Of a stretch of 64,000 nt of DNA, positions 20,301 through 61,517 are shown piece by piece. Source of the stretch: Candidatus Omnitrophota bacterium (GTDB lineage: Bacteria; Omnitrophota; Gorgyraeia; Gygaellales; Profunditerraquicolaceae); NCBI GenBank assembly GCA_043823435.1, contig JBDRAV010000003.1, forward strand, positions 96,366-160,365. Reading direction: 5' to 3'. The notes below the pieces were generated by a model. It made no database searches and was not told the origin of the DNA. It saw nothing but the letters and a program-made list of their open reading frames with translations. The translations under genes were made by a program, and so were the position numbers. Every line of letters begins with the position of its first letter. The first letter of the stretch is position 1.

Positions 20301-20316
20301 ATTCTACCCCCCTTAA

Positions 20317-20381
20317 GTTTTGAGTCTTGAGTTTTGAGTTTATTCTCCAGCTTCTAACTCTTAGCTCATAACTCCTAACTA
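20317..20381. repeat. two-armed heptanucleotide-periodic palindrome (GAGTTNN units)
   Basis: Left arm: gttttga gtcttga gttttga gtttatt (20317-20344). Right arm: ctaactc ttagctc ataactc ctaacta (20354-20381). The right arm overlaps the tig stop codon. Confidence 0.75.
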
Positions 20382-21250
20382 TTTTGCCAGTCCGCTTCTC
20401 TCAATAAAAACTCCATAACCTTACGAGGCATATGGTCGTCTATGGGTATATTTTCCTTCTTGGCAATAGCGGACAGGATCAGATAAACCCTGACCTGTTT
20501 CTTCGCTTCCTGTTCCAGCTGTCCGGTTATCGCTTTCTCCTGCTCTTCTATTTTTTCTCGCGAGACCCCCTTTAAAGCCAGGTCTAATTTAGTCTGCCTG
20601 AGCATATCCTGCAACTGACGGTTGACCAGGCCTTGAGGCAATTTAAAATCCAGACCCTTACTAATATTCTCCACGATCTCCTTCTCTATCTTCTGCCTCT
20701 GCTGGTTCTCTTCGCGTAGGTAAATCTCTTTCTCCACCGCCTTCTCTAATTCAGAAAGCATGGGATAACCTAATGACCTGGAAAAATTATCGTCTACAGT
20801 CTCTATTTTTCTTGTTTCTTTAATGGAATCGATATTGCGCTTTATCATATCCGCGCTAACTTCTATCTTCTTATAATTCACCCTGATACCCTTATAGTTT
20901 TTTATCGGGATCTGTGGGCTTATCTCTACCCTCGCCTTGAATGAAAGACTACCCCTGTCCAGTTTCACTTCGGATACTTCGGGCAGTTCTATAACCTCAA
21001 GGCCCTCCTTATCTATCGCCTGGTTATAAAGCTCGGGGATAAGTTCCTTCATTACCAACTCATGCGCATGAGAGGAATATTTCTTTTCCAGGATATCGCG
21101 TGGGGCATGGCCGGGCCGAAAACCTGGTATCTTGGCCTCTTTCGATATCTGTGCAAAAACATCATTAAATTTATTCTTGACCAGATCGCCGCTTACCTCA
21201 ATACTGATCTCCCTTTTGTTGCTGTCTATCTCTTTGACTTCAGTTTTCAC
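20375..21250 (-). CDS. tig: trigger factor, short form without recognisable PPIase domain
   Basis: 291 aa. N-terminal ribosome-binding signature GFRPGHAP and C-terminal arm-domain-like sequence. GTG start at 21250 preceded by a purine-rich RBS. Confidence 0.85.
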   Translation of the reverse strand: MKTEVKEIDSNKREISIEVSGDLVKNKFNDVFAQISKEAKIPGFRPGHAPRDILEKKYSSHAHELVMKELIPELYNQAIDKEGLEVIELPEVSEVKLDRGSLSFKARVEISPQIPIKNYKGIRVNYKKIEVSADMIKRNIDSIKETRKIETVDDNFSRSLGYPMLSELEKAVEKEIYLREENQQRQKIEKEIVENISKGLDFKLPQGLVNRQLQDMLRQTKLDLALKGVSREKIEEQEKAITGQLEQEAKKQVRVYLILSAIAKKENIPIDDHMPRKVMEFLLREADWQNS

Positions 21251-28220: not shown

Positions 28221-30248
28221 TCAACTATTCAAAATGGCATCCGCGGCAACTATAACATCATCCGTGGTTATCGCTTTAAGACACGCGAACTTCTTGGTGC
28301 AGTTATGCGCCAGACACTCTATACATCCGACCTCTTTATGCAGGACTTTATCTTTTATCCCGATCGGGCCCCAGCGTAGCGGCCCTAAACCCTTCTGGTT
28401 CCTGCCAAAAATAGAGATCACCGGTGTGCCTACGGCCACGGCAATATGCACGGGGCCGGAATCATTAGAGATAAATAAATCACACCTCTTCAAGATGCTG
28501 GCTAACTGGCTGACCGAAGTCTTTCCTGCCAGGTTGACCGCTGGCCGCTGCATATGTTTGACGACGCTCTCAGCCAACGTAATATCCTTAGGACCGCAGA
28601 CCACCAACACCTTGAAGCCATATTTTTCGTTTAACCTGTCAGCTGCTTCAGCGAACCCCTCATACGGCCAGATCTTCGAAGGGCAACTCGCACCCGGATG
28701 TATAGCTAATAATTTATCTGTCTCGCTTATCCCTTCCTGCCTGAACAACTCTTCTACCCAGGCTTCGGATTCTGGTTTCAGTGACATGAATATTTTATTG
28801 TCTTGCGGCTCAATGCCCAGATACCTGACTAAATCCAGGGCATACTCTGACTCATGTTTTTCTCCTGACTGCTTGGTATGCTTTATCCTGTCGGTAAGTA
28901 AAAATCCCAGTTTGCGGTCATAGCCGACCCTGCGGCGTATGCCGGCAAAGAGAGTCACCAGATGCGCGCGGTTGGTAGGATGAAGTATGACCGCTAAAGT
29001 AAACCTCCTCTTCTTAAGTCCCTGCGAGAATCTTAATGAACCCAACCAGCCTTTTTCTTTACCGTCCTTATCGTAAATAATCACTTCATCTAGACACGGA
29101 TTTCCGTCCACGATATCTTTTGTATAAGGAGAGACCATCGCCGCAATATATGCTGAAGGACAGCTATCCCTCAGTGCCTTTATTACCGGAGTCGATAAAA
29201 GCACGTCCCCTATCCTGTCCGTACGCACGATGAGTATGCGTTTATACTCGGTGCTCGGTGCTCGGTGCTCGGTGCTCTGAATTAATATTCTTCTGGCTTG
29301 CCTCAATACGTCTTCTGTTTTGATAAGCTGCATGCATCTTAATGTACCGTGGGCGCACTGCGCTTTTTCGCAAGGACGACAGAAGATATCTTTTTTTACT
29401 ACCGAATATAAGCGTGACCGGGGGCCGTATTTTCTTTCATTGGTCGGTCCGAAAACCGCCACAACCGGCGTATCCAGGTAACTTGCCAGGTGAAGCGTGG
29501 CGCTATCATTGGTAACCACGAGCGCGGATTTTCTCAGTAAAGAGGCAAGCTGCGCAATATTCGTCTTTGCGCTTAGATCCAAAAGGGGATATCGCGTATG
29601 CCCGGCTATGTATTTGTTGACCGGCGCGTCATCATTATCGCCGACCAAAACCACTTTGACTTTAAGCTCTTCTATTAAAGACTCGATTAACTGCGCGAAT
29701 TTATCCTGCTCCCATCTTTTTATATGGCTCCTGGCTCCGGCAGCAATAACGACTATCCTTTCCTGCCCGGTAATATTATTTTCCTTAAGAATATCTATAA
29801 TATATCTTTCATCTTCAGGCTTAACGCATAAAGACACCTGTTTAGTTTTATCATAAAGTCTCAACTTGAGTTTTAGCACCCTGTACAGGTGTCTATCTCT
29901 CATATGCATTATGCATTTTGGAATAACCAGAAGAGGGGAAGTCTTATCTCTGGCAGGTAACAACGCCCCGAAAAGACTGTTACGCATATCCGCGATGATG
30001 TCAAAGCCTTCAACTTTAAGCGCATTAAATAATTTTATCTTCTCCCTTAATGAAGAACGCTTATCGTAAATAATAAGCCTCTTAATATGGGGATTATCCC
30101 GGAATATATCTTTTGTGCGAACCCCGGATACTACCGTGACCTCTGACCCGGAGAAATTATCCACCAGGGTATCCAGGACCGGTAAAGTAAGGATGCAGTC
30201 GCCTATATTGCTTAAAGTAATAAAGAGTACCTTATTAACCATACCCAT
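28221..30248 (-). CDS. tandem glycosyltransferase family 9 (two heptosyltransferase-like modules in one ORF)
   Basis: 675 aa. Two GT9-type N-terminal motifs (VLFITLSNIGDCILTLP and ILIVRTDRIGDVLLSTP) and two C-terminal SNDSGPxH-like motifs. The modules are joined by a heptamer-repeat-encoded linker. Confidence 0.8.
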   Translation of the reverse strand: MGMVNKVLFITLSNIGDCILTLPVLDTLVDNFSGSEVTVVSGVRTKDIFRDNPHIKRLIIYDKRSSLREKIKLFNALKVEGFDIIADMRNSLFGALLPARDKTSPLLVIPKCIMHMRDRHLYRVLKLKLRLYDKTKQVSLCVKPEDERYIIDILKENNITGQERIVVIAAGARSHIKRWEQDKFAQLIESLIEELKVKVVLVGDNDDAPVNKYIAGHTRYPLLDLSAKTNIAQLASLLRKSALVVTNDSATLHLASYLDTPVVAVFGPTNERKYGPRSRLYSVVKKDIFCRPCEKAQCAHGTLRCMQLIKTEDVLRQARRILIQSTEHRAPSTEYKRILIVRTDRIGDVLLSTPVIKALRDSCPSAYIAAMVSPYTKDIVDGNPCLDEVIIYDKDGKEKGWLGSLRFSQGLKKRRFTLAVILHPTNRAHLVTLFAGIRRRVGYDRKLGFLLTDRIKHTKQSGEKHESEYALDLVRYLGIEPQDNKIFMSLKPESEAWVEELFRQEGISETDKLLAIHPGASCPSKIWPYEGFAEAADRLNEKYGFKVLVVCGPKDITLAESVVKHMQRPAVNLAGKTSVSQLASILKRCDLFISNDSGPVHIAVAVGTPVISIFGRNQKGLGPLRWGPIGIKDKVLHKEVGCIECLAHNCTKKFACLKAITTDDVIVAADAILNS
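29247..29274. repeat. (CTCGGTG)x4 tandem heptamer inside the tandem-GT9 ORF
   Basis: Four perfect copies, 29247-29274, followed by a partial ctc. They encode STEHRAPSTE in the inter-module linker. Confidence 0.9.
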
Positions 30249-32152: not shown

Positions 32153-33222
32153 TCCAGGTACACCTCCTCTGTTTCCCGGGCCATCTTCTCCTGAGAGAAA
32201 TTACCCTTAATGAAAGCGGCGGCGTTTCCTCCGAGCCGCCTTGCCTCCCCGGTATTTTGCAGTAATTCCAATATCGCGCGGGATAATCCCCGGCTGTCAG
32301 CCGCAGCGACCAGTAAACCGTTATCCTTATCCCGGATAAGACTCTTTATACCCCCTGCATCCGAACCGATAACAGCAATCCCGCAAGCCATTGCCTCCAT
32401 TAAAGCAAGGCCCAGGCCCTCTTTTGTAGAAGGAAGCACAAATAAATCCATGGCAGATAATGCCTCCCGCGTATCCATTACCGTCGGAAGAAAAACCACG
32501 CTCTTATCCAGCCCAACATCTCTGGCTAAACCCGCCAATCCCTCCTTCGTCCTGCCCTCTCCGACTATAAATAATTGCACTGCGGGGATCCTGGCGATAA
32601 CCCCCTGCATGGCTTCAATAAGATAGGCATGCCCCTTCTCTTCAGAAAGCCTGGCAACTATACCTACCACCGGGCCATCGCCTAACCCTAATCTTCTTTT
32701 CGCGTTGACTCTGGACTCCAAACTCGTAACTGCGAACTTTTCCACATCTATCCCGTTATGTATAACCGCGATATCATCTTCCCTTACCCAGAGATCCCTG
32801 ATCAGGTGCTCTTTCACGGGCTGGCTTATGGCTATAACCTTTCTCCCCCAAGATGGGAAAATCTTACGTAAAAGCCTCTTTTTAAAGAAACCATGGCAGG
32901 TCGAAATATATGGCCTTCCTAACATGCAGCTTAATACCTGTGTCACGCGCGTATTCGCATGGATGATATCTATCTTCTTATCTTTTAGATATCCGGATAA
33001 TTTAAACCTGCTGAGCAAAATCTTGTAACTCGCCTCTGATTTTGTCCTTATGGGTATAGGCAGGTATTCTATGCCATTTTCAATGAACCTATAGAGGAGA
33101 TCTCCTTTGCTTGAGGCTATATAGACATCGTGGCCCCGCTTCTTCATACCGCAGGCAAGGGTCAGGATATAGCTGGTTATGCCGCCAGTATTAAGATGAT
33201 TGGTCAAATAAAGTATCTTCAT
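32131..33222 (-). CDS. glycosyltransferase family 4
   Basis: 363 aa. GT-B fold type with N-terminal GGITSY and a C-terminal EGLGLALMEAMACG motif. Confidence 0.85.
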   Translation of the reverse strand: MKILYLTNHLNTGGITSYILTLACGMKKRGHDVYIASSKGDLLYRFIENGIEYLPIPIRTKSEASYKILLSRFKLSGYLKDKKIDIIHANTRVTQVLSCMLGRPYISTCHGFFKKRLLRKIFPSWGRKVIAISQPVKEHLIRDLWVREDDIAVIHNGIDVEKFAVTSLESRVNAKRRLGLGDGPVVGIVARLSEEKGHAYLIEAMQGVIARIPAVQLFIVGEGRTKEGLAGLARDVGLDKSVVFLPTVMDTREALSAMDLFVLPSTKEGLGLALMEAMACGIAVIGSDAGGIKSLIRDKDNGLLVAAADSRGLSRAILELLQNTGEARRLGGNAAAFIKGNFSQEKMARETEEVYLECLNADS

Positions 33223-35324
33223 CCCGCTGCCTGTTTACCTAACAGTTTATATATCGCCTCTAATACCTCTTCAGGTTTTATTGATTCCATGCACTCTATA
33301 GTTTTACAGCGTGACCTATAACAGGGGGCACAATCCAGACCCTTCTTGAGCACCACGCATTCTTTCGCCTTCGGTAGGTGCCGCCCGGACTCAGTGGCAC
33401 CGAAGAGGGCAACGAAAGGCACCTTTTGGCTAACCGCCACATGCAGGGGCGCCGAATCGGGAGAAATAAAAACGGAACACCGCTTAATCAGGCATGCCAG
33501 CTGATTCACCGTAGTCTTGCCGCAGGCATTGATTATCTTTATATTCTTGAGCTTGCTGGTCAATGCATTAGCTGCGTTTATATCTTTTTCCGTACCGGTG
33601 ATCAAAACCCTGAATTCCCTACGGGCTAATTCCTCGGATAGCCTTGCGATATGATGCAACGGCCAGTTTTTAGTCGGCCACTTGGAACTTGCGCTTATAT
33701 TGATACCTATGAGCACCTGATTGTCGCTTAACCATTCCGATTTAAGAAAATCATCAACGTATTTTTCGTCCTGCGGGGACGGCCAAAGTTCAAGCATTGC
33801 GTCTTTCTGTTCTATGCCAAGCATCTTTAATATCCTGAACTGATGCTCTACGGGGTTGATAAGGGGGCGTTCGTCTTTTATGCGCCTATTGAGCAGAAAA
33901 CCAAACTTTTTATTATCGTATCCGTAACGCTTTAAGGCCAGGCTTAAAAAAGAAAGTATATGGCTCTTACGGTTATTCTGCAAATCTATGACTATATCAA
34001 AATCATTCTTTCTCAGCGTCGCGGCTAACCTGAGAAGCCCCCGCACGCCTTTATCCCTGTTTTTAAAGTCGCAAACCAGCAGTTCATCTATGTAGGGGCA
34101 ATTTAAAAGCAGGTCCCTTGATTCTTCGCTTACCAAGAAGTTGATCTTATGATTACGGCGGAACTTCTCCATTATCGCCCTAATGGCGGCAGTAGAAAGG
34201 ATAATATCCCCAAGAGAGCTGAATTTAATGATCAGAATCTTGAAATTACTGAGCGCCTCTTTATAAACATCAAGCGTGCTGCGCGCCATAAGCTCTAGAT
34301 TATATTTTTCCTTTACTTTCTTATAGGCGTTCTCCGCCAGCTTGCGGCCTAATTGCGGATCCCTGAATATCTTTATCGCGGCATCCGCAATACTCGCCGG
34401 GTCAGCAGAAGGAACAAGCAGGCCTGTCTTCTGGTCATCTATGATATCGACTACGCCCCCTACACGTGTAGCTACTACCGGAACACCGCATGCCTGTGCC
34501 TCCACGATCACTCTACCGAATGCCTCATGCGTGGTAGTCGCAAGTACCAGAAGATCAAGGTGCGCCAATATCCCGGGGATATCCCTCTGGTTCCCGAGGA
34601 ATTGCGTACAGTGCCACAGACCCAGACGTTTTACCAAAACCTGTACATGCTCTTTGTAGGCCTCTTTGGAGCCAGGGGCATCACCTACTATCCATACTTT
34701 CAGGCGCGGCACGCTCCTTGCGACATAAGCCATCGCCTTTATAAAATGCGGGTGACCTTTGATAGGGGTAATCCTCCCGACTATCCCCACGTTAAATTCA
34801 TCTTTTCTTTTCTCTTCGGGGCTGATATATTTGAATTTCTCAAGGTCAACGCTGCGTGGGATTAACCTGATGCGCTCGTGGGGGACGTCGAAATCTTCTA
34901 TCATATGCCGGACGATCACATTACTTAAAGCAATCACCCTCCTGCCCCATCCCATAACGTAACTGAATGGGTGTTTCTTATAATAACCATGGCAGGTAGT
35001 AATAAATGGTCTGCCCGTTTTACGGCAGGCGAAATATGCGATCCAGGCAGGGACGCGGGAGCGCGCGTGGACAATATCAATCTCTTCTTTCCTGATAATC
35101 GCGGATAATTTCGGTATCATCCTGAGCATGGTAAATATGGATTTCTTGTGCACCGGCAACTGGTAATGAATCGCTCCATAGGACTCAAGTTCCTTTACCA
35201 TGGCCCCGCCGTTCGAGACCACCACAGCCTTATGGCCGTTCTTGACTAAATACCTGGCCAGGTCAATGGTCCCGGTCTCGACTCCGCCTATATTGAGTTG
35301 TGGCAATATCTGTAAGATATTCAT
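33219..35324 (-). CDS. GT4-GT9 fusion glycosyltransferase
   Basis: 701 aa. N-terminal GT4 (GGVETGTIDL ... EAFGRVIVEAQACG), then directly a GT9 module (ILIIKFSSLGDIILST ... SPDSAPLHVA). Confidence 0.8.
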   Translation of the reverse strand: MNILQILPQLNIGGVETGTIDLARYLVKNGHKAVVVSNGGAMVKELESYGAIHYQLPVHKKSIFTMLRMIPKLSAIIRKEEIDIVHARSRVPAWIAYFACRKTGRPFITTCHGYYKKHPFSYVMGWGRRVIALSNVIVRHMIEDFDVPHERIRLIPRSVDLEKFKYISPEEKRKDEFNVGIVGRITPIKGHPHFIKAMAYVARSVPRLKVWIVGDAPGSKEAYKEHVQVLVKRLGLWHCTQFLGNQRDIPGILAHLDLLVLATTTHEAFGRVIVEAQACGVPVVATRVGGVVDIIDDQKTGLLVPSADPASIADAAIKIFRDPQLGRKLAENAYKKVKEKYNLELMARSTLDVYKEALSNFKILIIKFSSLGDIILSTAAIRAIMEKFRRNHKINFLVSEESRDLLLNCPYIDELLVCDFKNRDKGVRGLLRLAATLRKNDFDIVIDLQNNRKSHILSFLSLALKRYGYDNKKFGFLLNRRIKDERPLINPVEHQFRILKMLGIEQKDAMLELWPSPQDEKYVDDFLKSEWLSDNQVLIGINISASSKWPTKNWPLHHIARLSEELARREFRVLITGTEKDINAANALTSKLKNIKIINACGKTTVNQLACLIKRCSVFISPDSAPLHVAVSQKVPFVALFGATESGRHLPKAKECVVLKKGLDCAPCYRSRCKTIECMESIKPEEVLEAIYKLLGKQAAG

Positions 35325-37297
35325 AATACCTTCTTTATCGCTTCTTTAACCAGAAGGTTATCCTTAAGGGTATTTATCACGGGGCGCTCCAGCATTATCC
35401 GGTTGACTTCCGCGGAAAGGTTATCAGCTTGCGTTAAATATATATATCTCTTTTCGGCAAAATACTCAAGGAACCTGCGGTGCTTACTGTTTAGGCCCGG
35501 GGAATCAAAGACCACCACGTATCTTGCGCTGCTTACCGCCTCAGAGATCATGGATATGCTTTCGGCGGAGATAATGACGATATCGCTTAAGGCCAGTATC
35601 CCGGCTACCGCATCCGGGATATTCTTTTCATTGGCAATGATCAGAAGCTTGCATGCGGGATAATCAATGAATTCTTCCTTTAGTAAACTTTCAACCGCAA
35701 CCGGTGTCCTGCGCGAAGTAGTGACCATCAATTCTGCCCCAAACTTCTCTATGCCCATCTTGATCTGCCGCGATACTTCCTTCACCAAACCTGCATTCAA
35801 ATGAAAAGCCTTGGCATCACCGCCCACCAATACGCCCAATACCGGCACTTTACCGGCCTGAACACCCAGCTCTTTAAGGGCCTCTCCGGCCCTTTTCAGG
35901 CGATCTTCATTGATTGAATTTAACGCGCCTTCAATCACCGCGACATTCTTTCTTTCGGGGTGGCGGTGGCTTCGGCTATCGGCAACCAAACCAGGGCCCC
36001 CTGGCAGGTCATGCCGACTCATTACCACTAGGTCAAACCTGTTCGTACTTAATATAGAGGGTCGCATGAGCACTATCGATTTAGCCAGGCTCTCCCTTGA
36101 AATGACATAATTAACAGGTGCGACTGATGTCCCACAGGAGATCACTATGTCCGGTTTAATACTTATCAATTCCTTATAGATTTCTTCTTTCAATAACTTC
36201 TTCAGGCACCCCTGACAGGAGTATTTACCTGATAACACGCAGCTTGCGGCCATGGCAACGCGGGAATATTTACCCCTGAACTTTATCTCTACCGCATTAA
36301 CGCTTGTACTTATGCCTTTCTCGCGCAGGGAATCACTGACTATACCGGCAATCCCCTCAGACTGCCTGAGGTGCCCGGCCTTACCGTCGCTTAAGATCAA
36401 AATATTCCGCTCTCTGCTATATTTCCATATCTTGTACGACCAAAGGTAATCCCGCGGATATTTTACAATATACCTTTCAAATAAGGCCGTCAACGCCTGC
36501 AGATTATCATTTATATCCTTTTCCGGGTCGCCCGTTTTCTTGATTTCAAATGGCGGCTCAACAAAGGCCTTTATGTAGGGTCCTTTTACCCGCGTGTAAA
36601 AGGAAGGGATAATGCAGGCGTCATATTTCAGGGCGAGCCTCACCGCGCCCGAGGGCATAGAAGCGTATTTACCGAAAAATTTTACCTGCGTGCCCGACTT
36701 ACCGCCCTGGTCCGCGGTCATCCCTATCGCCTCATTATTCTTAAGCGCCTTTATCAACTCACGGGTCTGATCCTCCTTCTGGATCAACCTGCAGCCCTTC
36801 TGGTTGCGGTATGAATTAAGGAGGCCATTTAAACGCGGGAACTTCTGGACGCGGATAAAGAGGTTAAAAGGAAAACCCAGGTTCGCGCAGATAATGCTCG
36901 AGAGTTCCCAGCTGCCAGCGTGCACGGTGACAAGGATCACTCCCTTGCCTCTCTTGAAACCTTCATCTATATTCTCTTTACCGTAGATAACCGCATATTT
37001 ACTTATGTATGCCGCGTCCATCAGGGGGATCAGCAGTATCTCGACGAGGCTCTGCCCGAATGCCCGGTAAAATTCTTTTGTCAGGCGGTTTAATTCCCGG
37101 GGCGATAACCCCGCGCCGATTGCGGTTTTTATATTCACGTAAGCTATTGCCCTGTGTTTGCGGTCAAGGTAATAAAAAACTTCTCCCATCCTCGCGCCCA
37201 GGAAGATGCTCGCGCTAACAGGCAGACTCCTTATAAGCGGGCCGATGAGCTTAATGAGAAAATAACCCAAGTAATCTACTACGGAATCCTTCTTCAT
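35321..37297 (-). CDS. LpxL/HtrB-type lipid A acyltransferase fused to an ELM1/DUF1022-like domain
   Basis: 658 aa. The N-terminal ~290 aa carry the HAGSWE (Hx4E) acyltransferase motif. The C-terminal half begins ILILSDGKAGHLRQSEGIA, which is typical of DUF1022. Confidence 0.7.
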   Translation of the reverse strand: MKKDSVVDYLGYFLIKLIGPLIRSLPVSASIFLGARMGEVFYYLDRKHRAIAYVNIKTAIGAGLSPRELNRLTKEFYRAFGQSLVEILLIPLMDAAYISKYAVIYGKENIDEGFKRGKGVILVTVHAGSWELSSIICANLGFPFNLFIRVQKFPRLNGLLNSYRNQKGCRLIQKEDQTRELIKALKNNEAIGMTADQGGKSGTQVKFFGKYASMPSGAVRLALKYDACIIPSFYTRVKGPYIKAFVEPPFEIKKTGDPEKDINDNLQALTALFERYIVKYPRDYLWSYKIWKYSRERNILILSDGKAGHLRQSEGIAGIVSDSLREKGISTSVNAVEIKFRGKYSRVAMAASCVLSGKYSCQGCLKKLLKEEIYKELISIKPDIVISCGTSVAPVNYVISRESLAKSIVLMRPSILSTNRFDLVVMSRHDLPGGPGLVADSRSHRHPERKNVAVIEGALNSINEDRLKRAGEALKELGVQAGKVPVLGVLVGGDAKAFHLNAGLVKEVSRQIKMGIEKFGAELMVTTSRRTPVAVESLLKEEFIDYPACKLLIIANEKNIPDAVAGILALSDIVIISAESISMISEAVSSARYVVVFDSPGLNSKHRRFLEYFAEKRYIYLTQADNLSAEVNRIMLERPVINTLKDNLLVKEAIKKVL

Positions 37298-38351
37298 TTT
37301 TTATGATCTTCAATTCTATGCGCAGGAACCATACCGGCAACTTATAGCCGGTAACCGGAAGCTGGTAAAGCCTGGATGCGTCTTTCTCGGTAGTGACCAG
37401 CACGCTTATTCCCGTATCTGTGGATTTGCTAATAATCTCATCCATATCTTTCTGGGTATAATTATAATGGTCGCGGAACCTGAAAGAAGTGCCGATATTC
37501 ACCCCCTGTTTGCTGACCAGCAGCTCAAAAGAAGCGGGGTCCGCTATGGCAGAGAATAAACCCGCGCTCTTACCCGCCAGCATATCCGCCCCCATCAGTT
37601 CACGCGGTTTATCCAGCCTGCAAAATCCCAAAGGGGCATGCGCGGACTCTACCTGAAAGGCCCCCGGATTGATACGCCTCAAATAACCCTTGACCTCATC
37701 TTGTGCCGGGCTAATATTGGCCTTGGTCAGTATAAAGATGTCGGCGCGTTTAAGCGATGAAAGCGGCTCGCGCAATATCCCGCGGGGGATAAGATTACGG
37801 TTCCCGAAAGGGAAGGTACTGTCAACGGCAACTATCTCAAGGTCCTTTTTTATGCGCCACTGCTGCATCCCGTCATCCAAGATCACCGTATCCGCTCCGT
37901 AATCGCGTATTGCCGAATTTCCCGCGCGTATCCTATCATGATCTACTATCACGGGTATATCTTTCAAGTTCATCTGCAGCATATAAGGCTCATCGCCCAT
38001 TGCCTCGGCGTTCGGTGTTCGGTGTTCGGTGTTCGGCCGAGAACCGAGAACCGAGAACCGAGAACCCATTCTTTTATATCCTCTGCTAAGTATCGCTACT
38101 TTATGCCCATGCTCCTTTAAATAGCGCGCAATATACAATACGAGGGATGTCTTCCCTGTCCCGCCCAAAGTAATATTTCCCACGCTGATAACTTTACATC
38201 CCAGCCGGTAAGGTTTAATGCGATAAATAAAGAGTAATATCCTGACAACTAGTCCATAGATAAGAGAGATAAGGTAGAGAAAAGAATTGAGCGTCCCCGC
38301 TACGGGCCCTCTATGTTTATCTGTGGCCAGTTCGTAAATATAACGTAACAT
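37251..38351 (-). CDS. lpxK: tetraacyldisaccharide 4'-kinase
   Basis: P-loop GNITLGGTGKT, SRGY and GDEP motifs. I prefer the start at ATG 38351 (MLRYIYE), which overlaps the stop of the upstream gene (TGATG). The ORF-track start at 38507 lies inside that gene. Confidence 0.85.
   Translation of the reverse strand: MLRYIYELATDKHRGPVAGTLNSFLYLISLIYGLVVRILLFIYRIKPYRLGCKVISVGNITLGGTGKTSLVLYIARYLKEHGHKVAILSRGYKRMGSRFSVLGSRPNTEHRTPNAEAMGDEPYMLQMNLKDIPVIVDHDRIRAGNSAIRDYGADTVILDDGMQQWRIKKDLEIVAVDSTFPFGNRNLIPRGILREPLSSLKRADIFILTKANISPAQDEVKGYLRRINPGAFQVESAHAPLGFCRLDKPRELMGADMLAGKSAGLFSAIADPASFELLVSKQGVNIGTSFRFRDHYNYTQKDMDEIISKSTDTGISVLVTTEKDASRLYQLPVTGYKLPVWFLRIELKIIKNEEGFRSRLLGLFSH
38004..38064. repeat. 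two-armed heptamer palindrome inside lpxK
   Basis: ctcggcg (ttcggtg)x3 ttcgg, then (ccgagaa)x4. The central tcggccga is a perfect 8-nt palindrome. The element encodes GSRFSVLGSRPNTEHRTPNAE. Confidence 0.9.
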
Positions 38352-38623
38352 CAGATCCTTCCCAATAACATCAGTATGCCCATTACGATAAATAATGACG
38401 CCCCGGCATACCTGATAAGCTCGGGCTTTAAATATTTTGCCAGGACAGCTCCCAGAATAACCGATAAAATAGTAACAGCGGCGTAGGCCAAAACAGAGCC
38501 TGCCCATACGGACAAGGGCCTGCCGGATTTCGCAGACATGCTTATCCCCACCAGTTGCGTCTTATCCGCAAGCTCCGCGAAGAACACTGCCGTGAATGTA
38601 GCCATAAATATTTTCCACTCCAT
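38351..38623 (-). CDS. UPF0016 (GDT1/TMEM165) family membrane protein, single-repeat form
   Basis: 90 aa. Three TM helices, an ELADKT (E-x-G-D-K-T-like) motif and an AAAGAGGAG SD. Confidence 0.75.
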   Translation of the reverse strand: MEWKIFMATFTAVFFAELADKTQLVGISMSAKSGRPLSVWAGSVLAYAAVTILSVILGAVLAKYLKPELIRYAGASLFIVMGILMLLGRI

Positions 38624-38691
38624 AATCCGCTCCTCTTTAAAGTGTATCCGTTATGCGTTAATCGGTATCGCAGTTTAAACCGTCAAACGTA

Positions 38692-38718
38692 TTGCGTAAG
38701 TTGTTTCGGGTTACGCAA
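38692..38718. repeat. TTGCGTAA / TTACGCAA inverted repeat containing CGTAAGTTGT
   Basis: Perfect 8-bp arms at 38692-38699 and 38711-38718. The 10-mer cgtaagttgt lies at 38695-38704. Located upstream of the UPF0016-lpxK genes. Confidence 0.7.
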
Positions 38719-38741
38719 ACCGTTAATCTTTTTTGAACCGC

Positions 38742-39722
38742 TTACGTTTTTCTTTGAGACGCCCCTTGCCTATTCTTCAACCCCTTGTCCAGAACCCTTC
38801 TATTCACCATGAAATTACTCCCGGGAAGGCCTTTGAGATATTTTTTCAGTTCTGCAGTAGTATCCATCAGTTCAAAAAGATTCAGGGTCTGGCCCAAAGG
38901 GTTATTCACTATGGCAACGGATAAACTCATCAGCGGCATATCCATGACCTTACCGCTCCTGTCGCTGCTCCTGATAAAACCGCTCTTGCGGTCCTCTTCT
39001 GAATAGCGACCGGGGGCCATAGCGTCAAACTCCCTGATGACATCTTTGGCAATGGGCTCGGCTTTATCGGGAGTGGTGATGAGCACAAAATCATCCCCTC
39101 CTATATGGCCGACAAAATCCTGTTTGTTGCCTATACTCTTGGCGTTCCTGGATATAATCCTGGATGTCTCTAAAATCACTTCATCACCCCGAAGATACCC
39201 GTATTTATCATTATAGGTTTTGAAGTTGTCTATATCCATGTAATGGAATGAAAAATGATCTCCGGAATCAATCCTCTCAATAAGCTCCCTCTGGATAAGT
39301 TTATTCCCGGGCAGGCGCGTCAGGGCGTTTGCGTTAAAGTGGTGCGCGGCGCTGCGTAAGGCCAGTACTATCCTTATCTCCAGGTCTATCGGGTCCGGCG
39401 GTTTGATCAGGTAATCATCCACTCCCTGCTCTATGCTGAGAAGATCCCGCCTTAATTGCCTCTTATCTATCAGGACGATGGTAGGTATATAGGATGTAAG
39501 AAAATCGTTCTTTATCTCCCTGCATATCCGCAGCCCGTTCTTACCCTCGATAGCCGCGTCTATGATAATCAGGCTGGGATTTTCCTTCTTTAATAATTCT
39601 ATTACGTCCTGGCCCTCTTCCAGCACCAGCACCTGGTACTCCCAGGCCTTTAAAAGATAAAGGAGTATCTCGCGTAACTTCGGATCCGGTACTGCCAGGA
39701 CTATTTTGATCTCCTGCGCCAT
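38742..39722 (-). CDS. response-regulator receiver + GGDEF-like domain protein (motif GGDDF)
   Basis: 326 aa. REC domain (IIIDAAIEG, phospho-Asp context) and a GGDEF-type fold (DIDNFKTYND ... HIGGDDFVL). Confidence 0.85.
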   Translation of the reverse strand: MAQEIKIVLAVPDPKLREILLYLLKAWEYQVLVLEEGQDVIELLKKENPSLIIIDAAIEGKNGLRICREIKNDFLTSYIPTIVLIDKRQLRRDLLSIEQGVDDYLIKPPDPIDLEIRIVLALRSAAHHFNANALTRLPGNKLIQRELIERIDSGDHFSFHYMDIDNFKTYNDKYGYLRGDEVILETSRIISRNAKSIGNKQDFVGHIGGDDFVLITTPDKAEPIAKDVIREFDAMAPGRYSEEDRKSGFIRSSDRSGKVMDMPLMSLSVAIVNNPLGQTLNLFELMDTTAELKKYLKGLPGSNFMVNRRVLDKGLKNRQGASQRKT

Positions 39723-40102
39723 CAGATTACTTTCATGTTAATTACGGGGTTCATCTTCAGGGTATTGTGTATCGGGCAGTTTTTAAGAAATTCAAGGAGA
39801 GGGGCCTTGCGGTGCTCATCAATCCCTGCCCCTTTCAAATCTATTGAAACGGATATCTCCTTAAAACCGACTGGTTTCTCTTTTCCGAATTCCGCTTCCG
39901 CGGTAATGCTGAAATCCTTCAAAACAAGTCCTGACCCCCGGAAATATTTCTGGATATACACTCCCAGGCACCCTGCGAGACTGGCTAATAACGCATCCGG
40001 CGGAATAATGCCTTTTCCATTTATGTCCATAACAAACTCGTGTCCTGCGGATTTTACTTTAAATGACGCATCCGGATTGCATGTAACTTCGGCGCGATAC
40101 AT
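39722..40102 (-). CDS. OsmC/Ohr family protein
   Basis: 126 aa. OsmC-like size and two conserved Cys contexts (LAGCLG, KNCPIH). Confidence 0.8.
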   Translation of the reverse strand: MYRAEVTCNPDASFKVKSAGHEFVMDINGKGIIPPDALLASLAGCLGVYIQKYFRGSGLVLKDFSITAEAEFGKEKPVGFKEISVSIDLKGAGIDEHRKAPLLEFLKNCPIHNTLKMNPVINMKVI

Positions 40103-47253: not shown

Positions 47254-48294
47254 CTAACGCGTTTTTTTCAGATAATTTTTGTAATTATCCTTTATATCAG
47301 ATAGTGAGTCGCTGCCGAACTTCTCAAGGAGGGCATCTGCCAGTACATAAGCAAGGGCGGACTCGGCGATTACGCCTGCTGCCTCTACCACGCAGATATC
47401 CGAACGCTCAACAGACGCCTTGGCAGGCTTCCTGCTGACAATATTCACGGAATTAAGGGGTTTAAGCAGAGTCGCGATCGGCTTCATGGCGGCGCGGATA
47501 ATAATATCCTCGCCGTTAGATATGCCACCTTCAATGCCTCCGGCATTATTCGTCTTATGGAAATAACCCCTTGCCTTATTGTAGTAGATAGCGTCATGGC
47601 ACTCAGAGCCGAATTTGTGCGCATATCCAAAACCCAGGCCTATTGCTACTGCTTTTACTCCGGGTATAGACATTATGCCTTGCGCTATGCGGCCATCAAG
47701 CCGCCTGTCAGGTTGAACATAGCTTCCCAAACCACAAGGCACGCCTTGGGCTATAACTTCAAATGCGCCTCCTATAGTATCCTTATTATCCTTAGCCAGC
47801 TTTATTTTTTTAACCATCGATTCAATTCCCGGCTCTCCTCCGATAGAAAGAACCAGGCTGGCTATATCTATGCCAAACTCCCCTAAAAGTACCTTGCATA
47901 CCGCGCCTATCCCTACGCGGATAGCGGTCTCTCTGGCAGATGCGCGCTCAAGGACATTGCGCGCGTCTTTAAACCCATATTTTAAAATACCAGCCAGATC
48001 CGCATGCCCGGGGCGCGGACAGAACACAGAAGGAAGCTTCTCAATAGTAAAATCCTTATTCTTGATACAGAGCGTAATCGGGCTCCCCAGAGTCACGCCT
48101 TTCTTAAGACCTGAGACTATCCTGGCTTTGTCATTCTCTATCTGCATGCGCGCACCTCGGCCAAAACCCTGCTGCCTGCGCTTTAATTCCGCATTTATCA
48201 TCACCTCGCTAAGTTTAAGTCCTGCGGGGATATTCTCTAAAATAGCCACTAGCGCCTCACCGTGCGATTCACCTGCAGTCAAATATCTCAACAT
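47254..48294 (-). CDS. aroC: chorismate synthase
   Basis: LRYLTAGESHG N-terminus. ATG at 48294 has GGAGGT 6 nt upstream, whereas the ORF-track start at 48306 is a TTG inside the RBS. Confidence 0.95.
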   Translation of the reverse strand: MLRYLTAGESHGEALVAILENIPAGLKLSEVMINAELKRRQQGFGRGARMQIENDKARIVSGLKKGVTLGSPITLCIKNKDFTIEKLPSVFCPRPGHADLAGILKYGFKDARNVLERASARETAIRVGIGAVCKVLLGEFGIDIASLVLSIGGEPGIESMVKKIKLAKDNKDTIGGAFEVIAQGVPCGLGSYVQPDRRLDGRIAQGIMSIPGVKAVAIGLGFGYAHKFGSECHDAIYYNKARGYFHKTNNAGGIEGGISNGEDIIIRAAMKPIATLLKPLNSVNIVSRKPAKASVERSDICVVEAAGVIAESALAYVLADALLEKFGSDSLSDIKDNYKNYLKKTR

Positions 48295-48310
48295 ATCTAC
48301 CTCCAATTTT

Positions 48311-48367
48311 GCACCTGGTGCCAGATTAACTTTGCACCAGGTGCAAAGTTAAGATTGTACCTGTCCC
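48311..48367. repeat. 23-nt-periodic array, 3 units, core GCACCWGGTGC
   Basis: Unit starts at 48311, 48334 and 48357. Cores read gcacctggtgc / gcaccaggtgc / gtacctgtccc. Unit 2 is the centre of a 25-nt perfect palindrome at 48327-48351. Confidence 0.85.
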
Positions 48368-48369
48368 CT

Positions 48370-48933
48370 TTATCTCCAAAGCCCTCTTTTATTCTCCCGT
48401 GCCTCACGGTATAGCTTTAAAAATAAATCCGCGTATTTTACGTTAGGCGGAAAAGTCATCACCGACGCATACCCCTGCCTGATGATCTCCGCGTTCACGA
48501 AAGTATTATCCTTCTTTAAATATACGTAAGCCAAAAGCCGCTTATATTGGTCGTACTTCTCCACGTCAAATTCTAAACTTGCATGCTGGCCTTCTGCCAA
48601 ATTTCTCGTAAATTCATAAGCGCGCCTGCCTAACTCCTGAATAGCGCTAATTCTGCGTCCTGTCCTCTGACTATCCCGGTATAATTTATCTGACTCATGC
48701 ATCTCAGGCGTATCTATGCCGATAAGCCGCACCCTCTCCCCGGACTCAAGTTCTATGGTATCTCCGTCGATCACGCGCCTGATGAGGATATCAGTATAGT
48801 TATAGGTCTTACCGAAGGGTAATTTAAATTTCCAATCTTCGGTATTATAGATCACAACCGGCTCATCTGCTATAACCCGGCAAGCAAACCCTAAAGAGAG
48901 CGCTATAAGCAATAAGATAATGCGCTTTTTCAT
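48370..48933 (-). CDS. secreted thermonuclease (staphylococcal nuclease, SNase fold)
   Basis: 187 aa. Signal peptide and SNase-like motifs (VIDGDTIEL...VRLIGIDTPE). Confidence 0.8.
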   Translation of the reverse strand: MKKRIILLLIALSLGFACRVIADEPVVIYNTEDWKFKLPFGKTYNYTDILIRRVIDGDTIELESGERVRLIGIDTPEMHESDKLYRDSQRTGRRISAIQELGRRAYEFTRNLAEGQHASLEFDVEKYDQYKRLLAYVYLKKDNTFVNAEIIRQGYASVMTFPPNVKYADLFLKLYREARENKRGLWR

Positions 48934-61372: not shown

Positions 61373-61517
61373 AGAGACGTTTTCCAACCTAATCCAGAGA
61401 CGTTTTCCGAGCTAATCGGGAACCTGTCCCCTATAAGGAACGGGTTCCGCTTTGGACCAGAAGACGTCTCCGCTTTGAGCTGGTAGACGTCTTTGCTTTG
61501 GGGCGGAAAGCGTCTCT
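61373..61517. repeat. two-armed 23-nt-periodic GAGACG/CGTCTC array (about 145 nt)
   Basis: Left-arm units at 61373 and 61396 (agagacgttttcc...). Central GGAACC/GGTTCC hairpin at 61419-61448. Right-arm CGTCT units at 61465, 61488 and 61511. Confidence 0.85.

What the first reader, a model, noticed from the sequence alone, without database searches (positions are those of the whole stretch)
38004..38064. Heptanucleotide two-armed palindrome embedded in frame inside lpxK
The plus strand reads ctcggcg (ttcggtg)x3 ttcgg (ccgagaa)x4. In the right phase the arms are inverted copies of one unit family: CACCGAA versus AACCGAG, giving 5 Watson-Crick pairs plus 1 wobble per 7 positions. The centre, tcggccga, is a perfect 8-nt palindrome.

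The 54-61 nt element is translated as GSRFSVLGSRPNTEHRTPNAE. This lies between the SRGY and GDEP motifs of LpxK, a segment that, as far as I recall, is a variable loop in characterised LpxK proteins.

Because the unit is 7 nt, gain or loss of one unit by slipped-strand mispairing would frameshift a normally essential lipid A kinase. Either the array is frozen and tolerated as a loop insertion, or it is a contingency (phase-variation) locus. Its architecture matches the intergenic heptamer palindromes in this window, so a repeat element may have colonised coding sequence.
Basis: partly seen in the sequence, partly recalled or inferred. Interest (0 to 1): 0.7.

Follow-up and report, generated by a model that had tools for sequence, protein, structure and literature searches.

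The report
Translated heptamer repeat inside lpxK
A 7-base repeat really does sit in frame inside the lipid A kinase gene of this Omnitrophota bacterium, but it looks like a stable, translated filler of a dispensable protein loop rather than an on/off switch. It is one example of a little-known habit of this phylum of carrying such repeats at fixed spots inside essential genes.

Summary
Window 38004-38066 is ctcggcg(ttcggtg)x3 ttcgg (ccgagaa)x4, in frame in lpxK (minus strand) of a Candidatus Omnitrophota MAG. It encodes residues 96-116, between SRGY and GDEP.

It is not an isolated oddity. In 82 Omnitrophota lpxK genes this loop runs from 2 to 28 residues. In about 25 genomes it is built from 7-nt tandem arrays whose unit differs between genomes. 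Protein length classes are 10, 17 and 24 residues, that is steps of 21 nt or three units.

A second lpxK site, the GT9-GT9 linker (window 29247-29277, same unit family), a GT4 linker, topA and some orthologous intergenic spacers carry arrays at conserved positions. Period 7 dominates all tandem repeats in 1.26 Mb.

Units are shared between sites within a genome far more often than between genomes. Array cassettes with short flanks are swapped between lineages.

The contingency-locus reading is not supported. Every allele seen is in frame, and the 4+4 unit form is identical in four diverged lineages. No read data could be checked.

Best reading: a translated, tolerated loop insertion from a dispersed heptamer-repeat family, akin to cyanobacterial, Beggiatoa and Xanthomonas heptamer repeats but here mostly inside genes.

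The parts
37251..38351 (-). lpxK (tetraacyldisaccharide 4'-kinase), 366 aa, host gene of the array
   Evidence: Pfam PF02606 1.8e-80. 100% identical to P0001, named LpxK of Candidatus Omnitrophota by NCBI. AlphaFold model has mean pLDDT 80.4 and matches Aquifex LpxK 4EHY with TM 0.68/0.80.
38037..38066 (-). Arm 1 in mRNA sense, (GTTCTCG)x4, encoding GSRFSVLGSR (residues about 96-105)
   Evidence: TRF: period 7, 4.3 copies, 100% matches. Translation. The same arm is present in L081, L082 and L089.
38004..38036 (-). Arm 2 in mRNA sense, (CCGAACA)x3 CCGAACG CCGAG, encoding PNTEHRTPNAE (residues about 106-116). It belongs to the same unit family as the GT9 linker array.
   Evidence: TRF: period 7, 4.6 copies, 96% matches. 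The unit is within 1 mismatch of the 29247 array. It appears orthologous to the direct arrays of other lineages that end in TTACGAA ACG ATG.
38033..38040 (.). Central perfect palindrome TCGGCCGA joining the two arms
   Evidence: Read directly. The junction TTCTCGGCCGAACA is conserved in L081, L082, L089 and in the gltD-like copy L087.
37326..37367 (-). lpxK site 2: decayed heptamer array (TACCAGC TTCCGGT TACCGGC TATAAGT TGCCGGT), encoding YQLPVTGYKLPVWF in the loop between helix 322-329 and strand 340-351
   Evidence: The same 14-residue slot holds pure arrays in L001, L006, L008, L078, L082 and L084. The DSSP trace of the model shows a loop here.
29247..29277 (-). Sister array (CACCGAG)x4.4, encoding QSTEHRAPSTE, the linker between the two GT9 heptosyltransferase domains of ORF 28221-30248
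   Evidence: TRF 100% matches. Translation and Pfam. Arrays sit at the same linker in 12 genomes with different units.
32704..32739 (-). Decayed heptamer array (AGTTCGC AGTTACG AGTTTGG AGTCCAG AGTCAAC) in the interdomain linker of the GT4 glycosyltransferase
   Evidence: Lag-7 match 0.64. Five other genomes have purer arrays at the same position (L008, L018, L048, L049, L054).
20312..20385 (.). Two-armed heptamer element of another unit family (TTGAGTn x4, then AACTCnT x4) between tig and clpP
   Evidence: It lies between the tig stop region and the clpP start.

Best explanation
The element is one copy of a dispersed family of short tandem heptanucleotide arrays that pervades this branch of Omnitrophota.

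Shown:
- It is translated and fills a dispensable, probably disordered surface loop of LpxK.
- Arrays sit at the same loop, linker and spacer positions in many genomes.
- Length differences between array alleles fall in steps of three units (21 nt, 7 residues).
- Coding arrays use units without stop triplets on the sense strand.
- Units are genome-specific but shared between sites in a genome.
- Array cassettes with 10-20 nt of flank are exchanged between lineages by short recombination tracts.

Inferred:
- Arrays grow and shrink by slipped-strand mispairing.
- Selection keeps only frame-preserving, stop-free versions at permissive sites.
- The lpxK array itself has no switch function and is close to neutral for the enzyme.
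- The left arm arose as an inverted copy of the older right arm, for example by template switching around the small hairpin TCTCGG...CCGAGA that survives in L084.
For: 1. Loop is dispensable. Site 1 spans 2 to 28 residues in 82 genomes, and all are in frame. Model pLDDT is below 50 for residues 95-116.
2. True 7-nt arrays with different units occupy the same site: ATTACCA, AACCACG, TTACCAG, AAATCCA, GTCGCCA, AAGCCAC, AAAGCGA, AATGCGG.
3. Length classes. Of the 97 out of 120 homologues in which both motifs were found, 57 have 17 residues, 10 have 10 and 6 have 24. L084 is the window form minus 42 nt, that is 3 units lost from each arm.
4. Period 7 dominates. 46 of 52 arrays with at least 4 copies have period 7. 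The lag scan gives 63 regions at lag 7, against 10 at lag 8, 4 at lag 6 and at most 1 at lags 4-5 and 9-13 (lag 14, the double period, gave 38), with 0 in shuffles.
5. Recurrent positions: lpxK site 2, the GT9-GT9 linker (12 genomes), the GT4 linker, topA, LpxL-ELM1 and the xerC-waaA spacer.
6. About 50 of 65 arrays lie in long ORFs on the sense strand. Most intergenic arrays have units containing stop triplets.
7. Unit sharing. 29% of within-genome array pairs differ by at most 1 mismatch, against 2.5% of between-genome pairs (permutation p <= 2e-4).
8. Stability. The same 4+4 element is present in the window, L081, L082 and L089.
9. Copying between genes. The same two-armed element sits in frame in a gltD-like gene (L087).
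10. Cassette swapping. L048 and L082 are 92% identical outside the two sites but differ at both arrays, and the mosaic patches match L081 instead.
Against: - Simple slippage adds one unit at a time. It does not explain how a 1-2 unit seed gains three units at once in an essential gene without a frameshifted intermediate.
- Neither slippage nor allelic recombination explains why units are shared between different genes of one genome, so an extra process is needed.
- Neutrality of the loop is inferred, not measured. A low-confidence model segment is not proof of disorder.
- No transcript, proteome or read-level data were available.
- All genomes are metagenome assemblies, which report the majority allele and could hide minority off-phase variants.
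- The sample is centred on lpxK neighbourhoods, so genome-wide statements are extrapolated.
Confidence: 0.6

Rival explanations
1. Contingency locus. Gain or loss of one 7-nt unit by slippage switches lpxK, and the other LPS genes that carry arrays, off and on within the population, varying lipid A and LPS.
For: The unit length is not a multiple of 3, so a change of one unit would frameshift. Several arrays sit in LPS genes: lpxK, the GT9-GT9 gene, GT4 and LpxL-ELM1. These are the classical class of phase-variable genes in pathogens (established knowledge; see also PMC2651432). Length variants in steps of three units show that the tracts do change over evolutionary time.
Against: All 82 lpxK alleles and all of the roughly 50 coding arrays are in frame. 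The 4+4 copy number is identical in four diverged lineages. Tracts have only 4-5 units. Arrays also occur in topA and in a gltD-like gene, which are not surface-variation genes. No allele differing by one unit was found in the metagenome scan or among truncated LpxK fragments; the one break at an array is a chimeric contig.
Confidence: 0.06
2. Functional cis element read by a genome-specific factor. The arrays, as RNA or single-stranded DNA, would be binding sites for a heptamer-recognising protein such as a cold-shock-type OB-fold protein. Alternatively the two-armed form acts as a hairpin that tunes translation or mRNA decay. Sites and factor would co-evolve, which would explain shared units within a genome.
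For: Units are shared within genomes but differ between genomes. Positions are conserved over long divergence, including intergenic spacers next to start codons. The RNA hairpin is -30.4 kcal/mol, z = -2.5. CspB binds heptamer repeats with one protein per unit, and heptamer repeats near start codons are proposed regulators in Beggiatoaceae and Nostoc (PMC4679880; bioRxiv 10.1101/2022.06.06.494920).
Against: Many lineages have decayed arrays or no array at the same sites and keep intact genes. Most site-1 arrays are single-armed and cannot form the hairpin. Among the four two-armed alleles the differences are not compensatory. There is no Rfam match, and no candidate reader was identified.
Confidence: 0.12
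3. Active mobile or templated mini-element. Arrays, together with the 20-21 nt GC hairpin CCTGCCTGCCGGCAGGCAGG found inside some of them, would be inserted or overwritten again and again at junction-like targets by a dedicated enzyme such as a transposase, reverse transcriptase or conversion system. On this view they are not inherited and slowly remodelled.
For: An identical two-armed element occurs in two unrelated genes. Units are shared within a genome. Both arrays were replaced wholesale between two genomes that are 92% identical. The hairpin occurs 26 times in 18 loci (34 overlapping pattern hits), often inside heptamer arrays and adding exactly 21 nt. This resembles the small dispersed repeats of Nostoc (Elhai 2008, recalled from memory; cited).
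Against: The swapped patches carry lpxK-specific flanking codons, which points to allelic homologous recombination rather than insertion. Decayed arrays of unchanged length argue for inheritance. L086 and the window share a decaying orthologous GT9 array. No transposase or reverse transcriptase was linked to the arrays, though this was not searched systematically.
Confidence: 0.15
4. Protein-level adaptation. The 7-residue peptide repeats would rebuild the beta-hairpin that canonical LpxK has between SRGY and GDEP, and would be kept for enzyme function or membrane contact.
For: Aquifex LpxK has a 23-residue segment here. The modal Omnitrophota loop of 17 residues consists of two 7-residue repeats, and site 2 keeps 14 residues in most lineages.
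Against: Loop sequences are unrelated between genomes. Three genomes have only 2 residues and many have 6-8. The model gives no confident structure for residues 95-116. Periodicity of 7 nt cannot result from selection on protein sequence.
Confidence: 0.05

Closest known systems
Long simple sequence repeats with 7-nt units in prokaryotes (Mrazek et al. 2007, as summarised in PMC4679880 and PMC4692102)
   Same: Tandem head-to-tail heptamers of a few copies. Heptamers are the most common non-triplet unit. Slippage, perhaps linked to a polymerase footprint, is the proposed origin.
   Different: Those surveys report non-triplet units as depleted in coding regions. Here about three quarters of arrays are inside genes, in frame through multiples of three units, at positions conserved across a phylum.
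Genome-specific dispersed heptamer families: cyanobacterial STRR (Calothrix/Nostoc), TAACTGA repeats of Beggiatoaceae, GGGNATC repeats of Xanthomonas and Nostoc
   Same: One or a few unit sequences are repeated at many loci of a genome. Sets are short (2-6 units, with a preference for about 4). Function and spreading mechanism are unknown.
   Different: Those are overwhelmingly intergenic, and one unit is conserved across species. In Omnitrophota the unit changes from genome to genome while the position stays the same, and essential genes are hosts.
Contingency loci (phase-variable simple sequence repeats in LPS and surface genes of Haemophilus, Neisseria, Campylobacter)
   Same: A non-triplet repeat inside an LPS biosynthesis ORF, which could in principle frameshift.
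   Different: No off-phase alleles were seen. Tracts are short, copy number is fixed across lineages, and the host genes include housekeeping genes.
Small dispersed repeats (SDR) of Nostocaceae and REP/REPIN palindromes
   Same: Very small hairpin-forming elements that occur in many copies and can nest in other repeats. The GC hairpin inside Omnitrophota heptamer arrays is the closest parallel. Some details of SDRs are recalled from memory because Elhai 2008 could not be read.
   Different: The window element has no GC hairpin, since its arms are themselves the palindrome. No RAYT-type transposase link was shown, and the elements are mostly intragenic and translated.

Membership tests
LpxK (PF02606), the host gene | Pfam family score above the curated cut-off, and a P-loop GxxGxGKT | tested here: met
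   271 bits against a cut-off of 27. GGTGKT is present.
LpxK (PF02606), the host gene | LpxK fold | tested here: met
   The model matches Aquifex LpxK 4EHY with E 3.7e-20 and TM 0.68/0.80.
Tandem heptanucleotide simple sequence repeat | At least 3 head-to-tail copies of a 7-nt unit, beyond chance | tested here: met
   4.6 and 4.3 copies at 96-100% matches. Shuffles give 0.04 such regions per window.
Dispersed genome-specific heptamer family (STRR / TAACTGA / GGGNATC type) | The same unit occurs at several separate loci of one genome | tested here: met
   In the window the CACCGAG family occurs at 29247 and in both lpxK arms. Across loci, 29% of within-genome pairs against 2.5% of between-genome pairs differ by at most 1 mismatch, p <= 2e-4.
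Dispersed genome-specific heptamer family (STRR / TAACTGA / GGGNATC type) | Predominantly intergenic location | tested here: not met
   About 50 of 65 arrays lie inside long ORFs on the sense strand.
Dispersed genome-specific heptamer family (STRR / TAACTGA / GGGNATC type) | The same unit sequence is conserved across related species | tested here: not met
   Units differ between genomes at orthologous sites.
Contingency (phase-variable) locus | Repeat unit not divisible by 3, located within an ORF or promoter | tested here: met
   A 7-nt unit inside lpxK.
Contingency (phase-variable) locus | Copy number varies between strains, including out-of-frame alleles | tested here: not met
   82 of 82 alleles are in frame. 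The 4+4 form is present in four lineages. No frameshifted fragment was found.
Contingency (phase-variable) locus | Within-population length heterogeneity in sequencing reads | not testable with these tools
   No read data are accessible. The metagenome contig scan found no second contig of the same species.
REP / REPIN / MITE-like palindromic mobile element | Imperfect palindrome able to form a hairpin | tested here: met
   RNA -30.4 kcal/mol, DNA about -17 kcal/mol, z about -2.5.
REP / REPIN / MITE-like palindromic mobile element | Many near-identical copies per genome and an associated transposase (RAYT or IS) | tested here: inconclusive
   There is one two-armed copy of this family in 64 kb. 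An identical copy sits in a gltD-like gene on another contig of unknown organism. Transposases were not searched.

The most novel reading that the evidence does not exclude
Omnitrophota may maintain a genome-wide network of heptamer arrays embedded in coding sequences and gene junctions through a trans-acting, genome-specific reader or writer. This could be a heptamer-binding protein or a templated conversion system. It would account for three things: positions are conserved across the phylum, unit sequences are replaced wholesale between close relatives, and different genes of one genome carry the same unit. The lpxK element would then be a functional node, for example coordinating expression of LPS genes, and not a passive insertion.
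Probability: 0.12. Interest if true: 0.85.

Novelty: new variant of a known kind. Interest (0 to 1): 0.6.

Why it matters
Non-triplet simple repeats inside essential genes are usually assumed to be purged or to act as phase-variation switches. Here a whole uncultivated phylum tolerates 7-nt arrays in frame at fixed loop and linker positions of lpxK, topA and several glycosyltransferases. Repeat units are genome-specific and array cassettes are exchanged by recombination.

This has four consequences:
- It gives a natural map of permissive insertion sites in these enzymes.
- It warns annotators that 7-residue peptide repeats in Omnitrophota proteins come from DNA repeats, not from protein motifs.
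- It warns assemblers that contigs can break or misjoin at these arrays.
- It offers a tractable system for the old open question of how dispersed heptamer families (STRR, TAACTGA, GGGNATC) spread and stay homogeneous within a genome.

For the specific claim, it removes lpxK of this organism from the list of candidate contingency genes unless read data say otherwise.

Tried and rejected
- Rfam scan of 36000-40000 at permissive threshold: only a chance snoRNA hit elsewhere.
- The repeat finder for the inverted arms: not listed, because no exact 9-nt seed exists.
- Metagenome scan with the junction TTCTCGGCCGAACAMCGAAC, intended to find same-species contigs with other copy numbers: it returned only other lineages with the same 4+4 form, one gltD-like copy and chance single-unit hits.
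- Protein search with the array-encoded peptide repeat, intended to list other host genes: swamped by short spurious ORFs over long repeats in unrelated phyla, so uninformative.
- Search with the LpxK N-terminus for frameshifted alleles: it returned 20 short fragments. The sequences of 14 were read; several derail after SRGY, but only two (L097 and L098) were pursued to contig DNA. L097, the only one that breaks at an array, is a chimeric or rearranged contig. L098 could not be read.
- Identifying the organism of L087 by exact look-up of its panB: no name on record. tblastn found no gltD-like gene in the window or loci.
- Reading Elhai 2008 on small dispersed repeats: not held, so that comparison rests on citations and memory.
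- Rejected ideas: an assembly artefact, because the arrays recur in independent assemblies from NCBI, JGI, ENA and Logan; an intron- or bypass-like untranslated insert, because length steps of 21 nt and stop-free sense units show a reading-frame constraint; LPS-specific targeting, because arrays also occur in topA, a gltD-like gene and intergenic spacers.
Full report
**1.

The plus strand at 38004-38066 reads ctcggcg (ttcggtg)x3 ttcgg (ccgagaa)x4 cc, with the perfect palindrome tcggccga at 38033-38040. Tandem Repeats Finder reports two adjacent period-7 arrays of 4.6 and 4.3 copies at 96% and 100% matches.

A lag scan of the 64 kb window finds three period-7 regions, none at lags 4-11 and one at lag 12. 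Shuffled sequence gives 0.04.

On the mRNA strand the G-T wobble becomes C-A, leaving 5 pairs per 7. The sense RNA folds into an interrupted hairpin of -30.4 kcal/mol (z -2.5).

The host ORF 37251-38351 (minus strand) is LpxK:
- Pfam PF02606, 1.8e-80.
- 100% identical to an NCBI protein of a Candidatus Omnitrophota MAG.
- The model superposes on Aquifex LpxK.

The array encodes residues 96-116 of the segment KRMGSRFSVLGSRPNTEHRTPNAEAM between SRGY and GDEP.

**2. The same loop in other Omnitrophota**

Both motifs were found in 97 of the 120 closest LpxK homologues, all from Omnitrophota or unnamed metagenome sequences. In these the SRGY-GDEP segment has no conserved sequence. It falls into length classes: 57 with 17 residues, 10 with 10 and 6 with 24, plus rarer ones.

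Many of the segments are 7-residue tandem repeats, such as KRK ITNYQLP ITNYETM or VTSYKLQ VTSYKTM.

I fetched 80 species-level genomic loci and six more. The DNA shows true 7-nt arrays with a different unit in each genome: ATTACCA, AACCACG, TTACCAG, AAATCCA, GTCGCCA, AAGCCAC, AAAGCGA, AATGCGG and others.

Three units make 21 nt, or 7 residues. This explains both the peptide repeats and the length steps.

- Of 24 genomes in the 17-residue class, 14 have strong lag-7 periodicity and 10 have decayed.
- A separate clade has a conserved 12-residue loop without repeats.
- Several genomes have 6-8 residues, and three have only 2.

So the loop is dispensable in this phylum. The AlphaFold model gives pLDDT below 50 for residues 95-116 between confident flanks. 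Aquifex LpxK has a 23-residue segment here. The window loop is therefore an insertion relative to its relatives, not relative to characterised enzymes.

**3. The window allele and its relatives**

The two-armed form (GTTCTCG)4 G (CCGAACA)4 CCGAG occurs with the same 4+4 units in L081/L093/L096, L082/L083 and L089. These LpxK proteins are only 65-77% identical to the window's or to each other.

- L084 carries a collapsed form, TTTCTCGG CCCAACA CCGAG. It is 42 nt shorter, which is three units lost from each arm.
- L086, the closest relative at 77% identity, has an unrelated 8-residue loop.

The right arm lines up with the direct arrays of other lineages that end in TTACGAA ACG ATG. I infer that the left arm is a later inverted copy.

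**4. The phenomenon is wider than this loop**

A second lpxK site, 26 residues before the C-terminus, holds pure arrays in many genomes. Examples are (TACGAGT)5 in L001 and L084, (TACAGCT)5 in L082 and (AGCTTTC)5 in L008. In the window it holds a decayed array at 37326-37367.

The window's other strong array, (CACCGAG)x4.4 at 29247-29277, encodes the linker between the two GT9 domains of a 675-residue double heptosyltransferase. Twelve genomes have an array at that linker, each with its own unit.

Arrays also recur at these positions:
- the GT4 interdomain linker (decayed in the window at 32704-32739);
- LpxL-ELM1;
- DNA topoisomerase I at about residue 200;
- loops of a membrane glycosyltransferase;
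- a lipoprotein signal peptide;
- the orthologous xerC-waaA spacer.

Across 1.26 Mb, 46 of 52 arrays with at least 4 copies have period 7. The lag scan gives 63 regions at lag 7, against 10 at lag 8, 4 at lag 6 and at most 1 at lags 4-5 and 9-13 (lag 14, the double period, gave 38), with none in shuffles.

About 50 of 65 arrays lie inside long ORFs on the sense strand. Most intergenic arrays have units that contain a stop triplet. That is the pattern expected if stop-containing units can survive only between genes.

**5. How the arrays evolve**

Units are genome-specific but shared between sites. 29% of within-genome array pairs differ by at most one mismatch in either orientation, against 2.5% of between-genome pairs (permutation p <= 2e-4). 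Examples:
- the window's lpxK arms and its GT9 linker;
- both lpxK sites in L006;
- lpxK site 2 and the GT9 linker in L084.

The identical two-armed element, with 3+4 units, also sits in frame in a gltD-like gene on another contig (L087).

L048 and L082 are 92% identical in LpxK outside the two sites, yet they carry unrelated arrays at both sites. Their nucleotide identity is 93-100% over most of the gene.
- At site 1 it falls to 42-70%, while L082 is 97-100% identical to L081 there.
- At site 2 it falls to 54-63%, while L048 is 83-93% identical to L081 there.

The patches include 10-20 nt of lpxK-specific flank. Array alleles are therefore moved between lineages by short homologous recombination tracts.

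Orthologous arrays also decay in place. The GT9 array of L086 is a degraded copy of the window's.

**6. Mechanism**

The best-supported account is a dispersed heptamer-repeat family whose members change length by slippage. They are filtered by reading frame and stop codons, persist at permissive loops, linkers and spacers, and are reshuffled by recombination. On this account the lpxK element is a translated, tolerated insertion.

Two things remain unexplained:
- how three units are gained at once from a 1-2 unit seed in an essential gene;
- what keeps units alike across different genes of one genome.

These gaps leave room for a mobile or templated process, or for a heptamer-specific binding factor. 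I rate these rivals at 0.15 and 0.12.

**7. Phase variation**

Nothing found supports it:
- All 82 alleles are in frame.
- Copy number is fixed across four lineages.
- Tracts are short.
- Housekeeping genes are among the hosts.
- No allele differing by one unit appeared in the metagenome scan or among the short N-terminal fragments that I examined. The single break at an array is a chimeric contig.

Assemblies report majority alleles, so only read data can close the question.

**8. Comparison with known systems**

Heptamers are reported as the most abundant long simple-repeat class in prokaryotes. Genome-specific heptamer families are known in Calothrix and Nostoc, in Beggiatoaceae (TAACTGA) and in Xanthomonas and Nostoc (GGGNATC, with a preference for four units). 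All are described as mainly intergenic and of unknown function.

Full-text searches found nothing on such repeats in Omnitrophota.

The Omnitrophota case shares the unit length, the short sets and the genome specificity. It differs in being mostly intragenic and in frame, in having conserved positions with unit turnover, and in sitting in essential genes. I therefore rate it a new variant of a known kind, with interest 0.6.

Noticed in passing
L004 10296-10316; L005 7458-7473; L025 7071-7091; L034 10302-10322; L046 6406-6424; L008 7179-7219; L019 2628-2644 (26 occurrences in 18 loci; none in the window): A 20-21 nt GC-rich palindrome, CCTGCCTG(n)CCGGCAGGCAGG, is conserved in sequence across many Omnitrophota genomes. 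It often sits inside heptamer arrays and is mostly translated in frame as LPAGRQAG-like peptides. In lpxK site 1 it adds exactly 21 nt, turning the 17-residue class into the 24-residue class. It looks like a separate mini-element.
   Followed up: partly
window 29247-29277: (CACCGAG)x4.4 forms the linker STEHRAPSTE that joins two GT9 heptosyltransferase domains into one 675-residue protein. The same junction carries arrays in 12 genomes. An intergenic array that lost a stop codon may have created the fusion.
   Followed up: partly
L008 6521-6550; L021 7497-7519; L041 7925-7946: The orthologous spacer between a xerC-like gene and waaA is almost entirely a heptamer array in three genomes, with different units (TGTGTAA, AGTAGTG, TATGAGC). 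Each unit contains a stop triplet, so the array stops all three frames just before the next start codon.
   Followed up: partly
L005 1048-1126: A two-armed array, (AGCTCCA)x4.4 and (CTTGCAG)x4.4, encodes the N-region and hydrophobic core of a predicted lipoprotein signal peptide of a GDSL-type lipase (MRRNSSKLQAPSSK...LLAACSLQLATLLIGC).
   Followed up: no
L032 410-463: At lpxK site 1 this genome has a period-8 array (GTCACAAC x3). Three units make 24 nt, which explains the 18-residue length class seen in several homologues.
   Followed up: no
L097 (contig k141_4885032), about position 540: This contig runs from the lpxK N-terminus into an unrelated radical-SAM gene exactly at the site-1 array. 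It is either an assembly misjoin at the repeat or a real rearrangement.
   Followed up: partly
L087 88-142: The same two-armed element as in the window's lpxK, with 3+4 units, lies in frame in a gltD-like oxidoreductase just before its KVAVVGSGPGG motif. The contig is 2.7 kb and its organism is unknown.
   Followed up: partly
L006 10198-10201: The GT9-GT9 gene of this genome is split by an in-frame TGA at a position where L041 has Trp and the window has Arg. This could be a sequencing error, a pseudogene or a split gene.
   Followed up: no
window 48305-48361: Two tandem 23-nt copies contain the palindrome TTTGCACC(n)GGTGCAAA (TRF and inverted repeats I2 and I7). They lie between ORFs 47254-48306 and 48370-48933 and look like a pair of operator sites.
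   Followed up: no
window 61373-61417: A 23-nt direct repeat of two copies (AGAGACGTTTTCCAACCTAATCC, 90% matches) of unknown meaning.
   Followed up: no
window 33219-37297: The LPS genes here are unusually fused: LpxL acyltransferase with an ELM1-like domain (658 aa), and GT4 with GT9 (701 aa). The lpxK 3' end overlaps the next gene by 47 nt.
   Followed up: no
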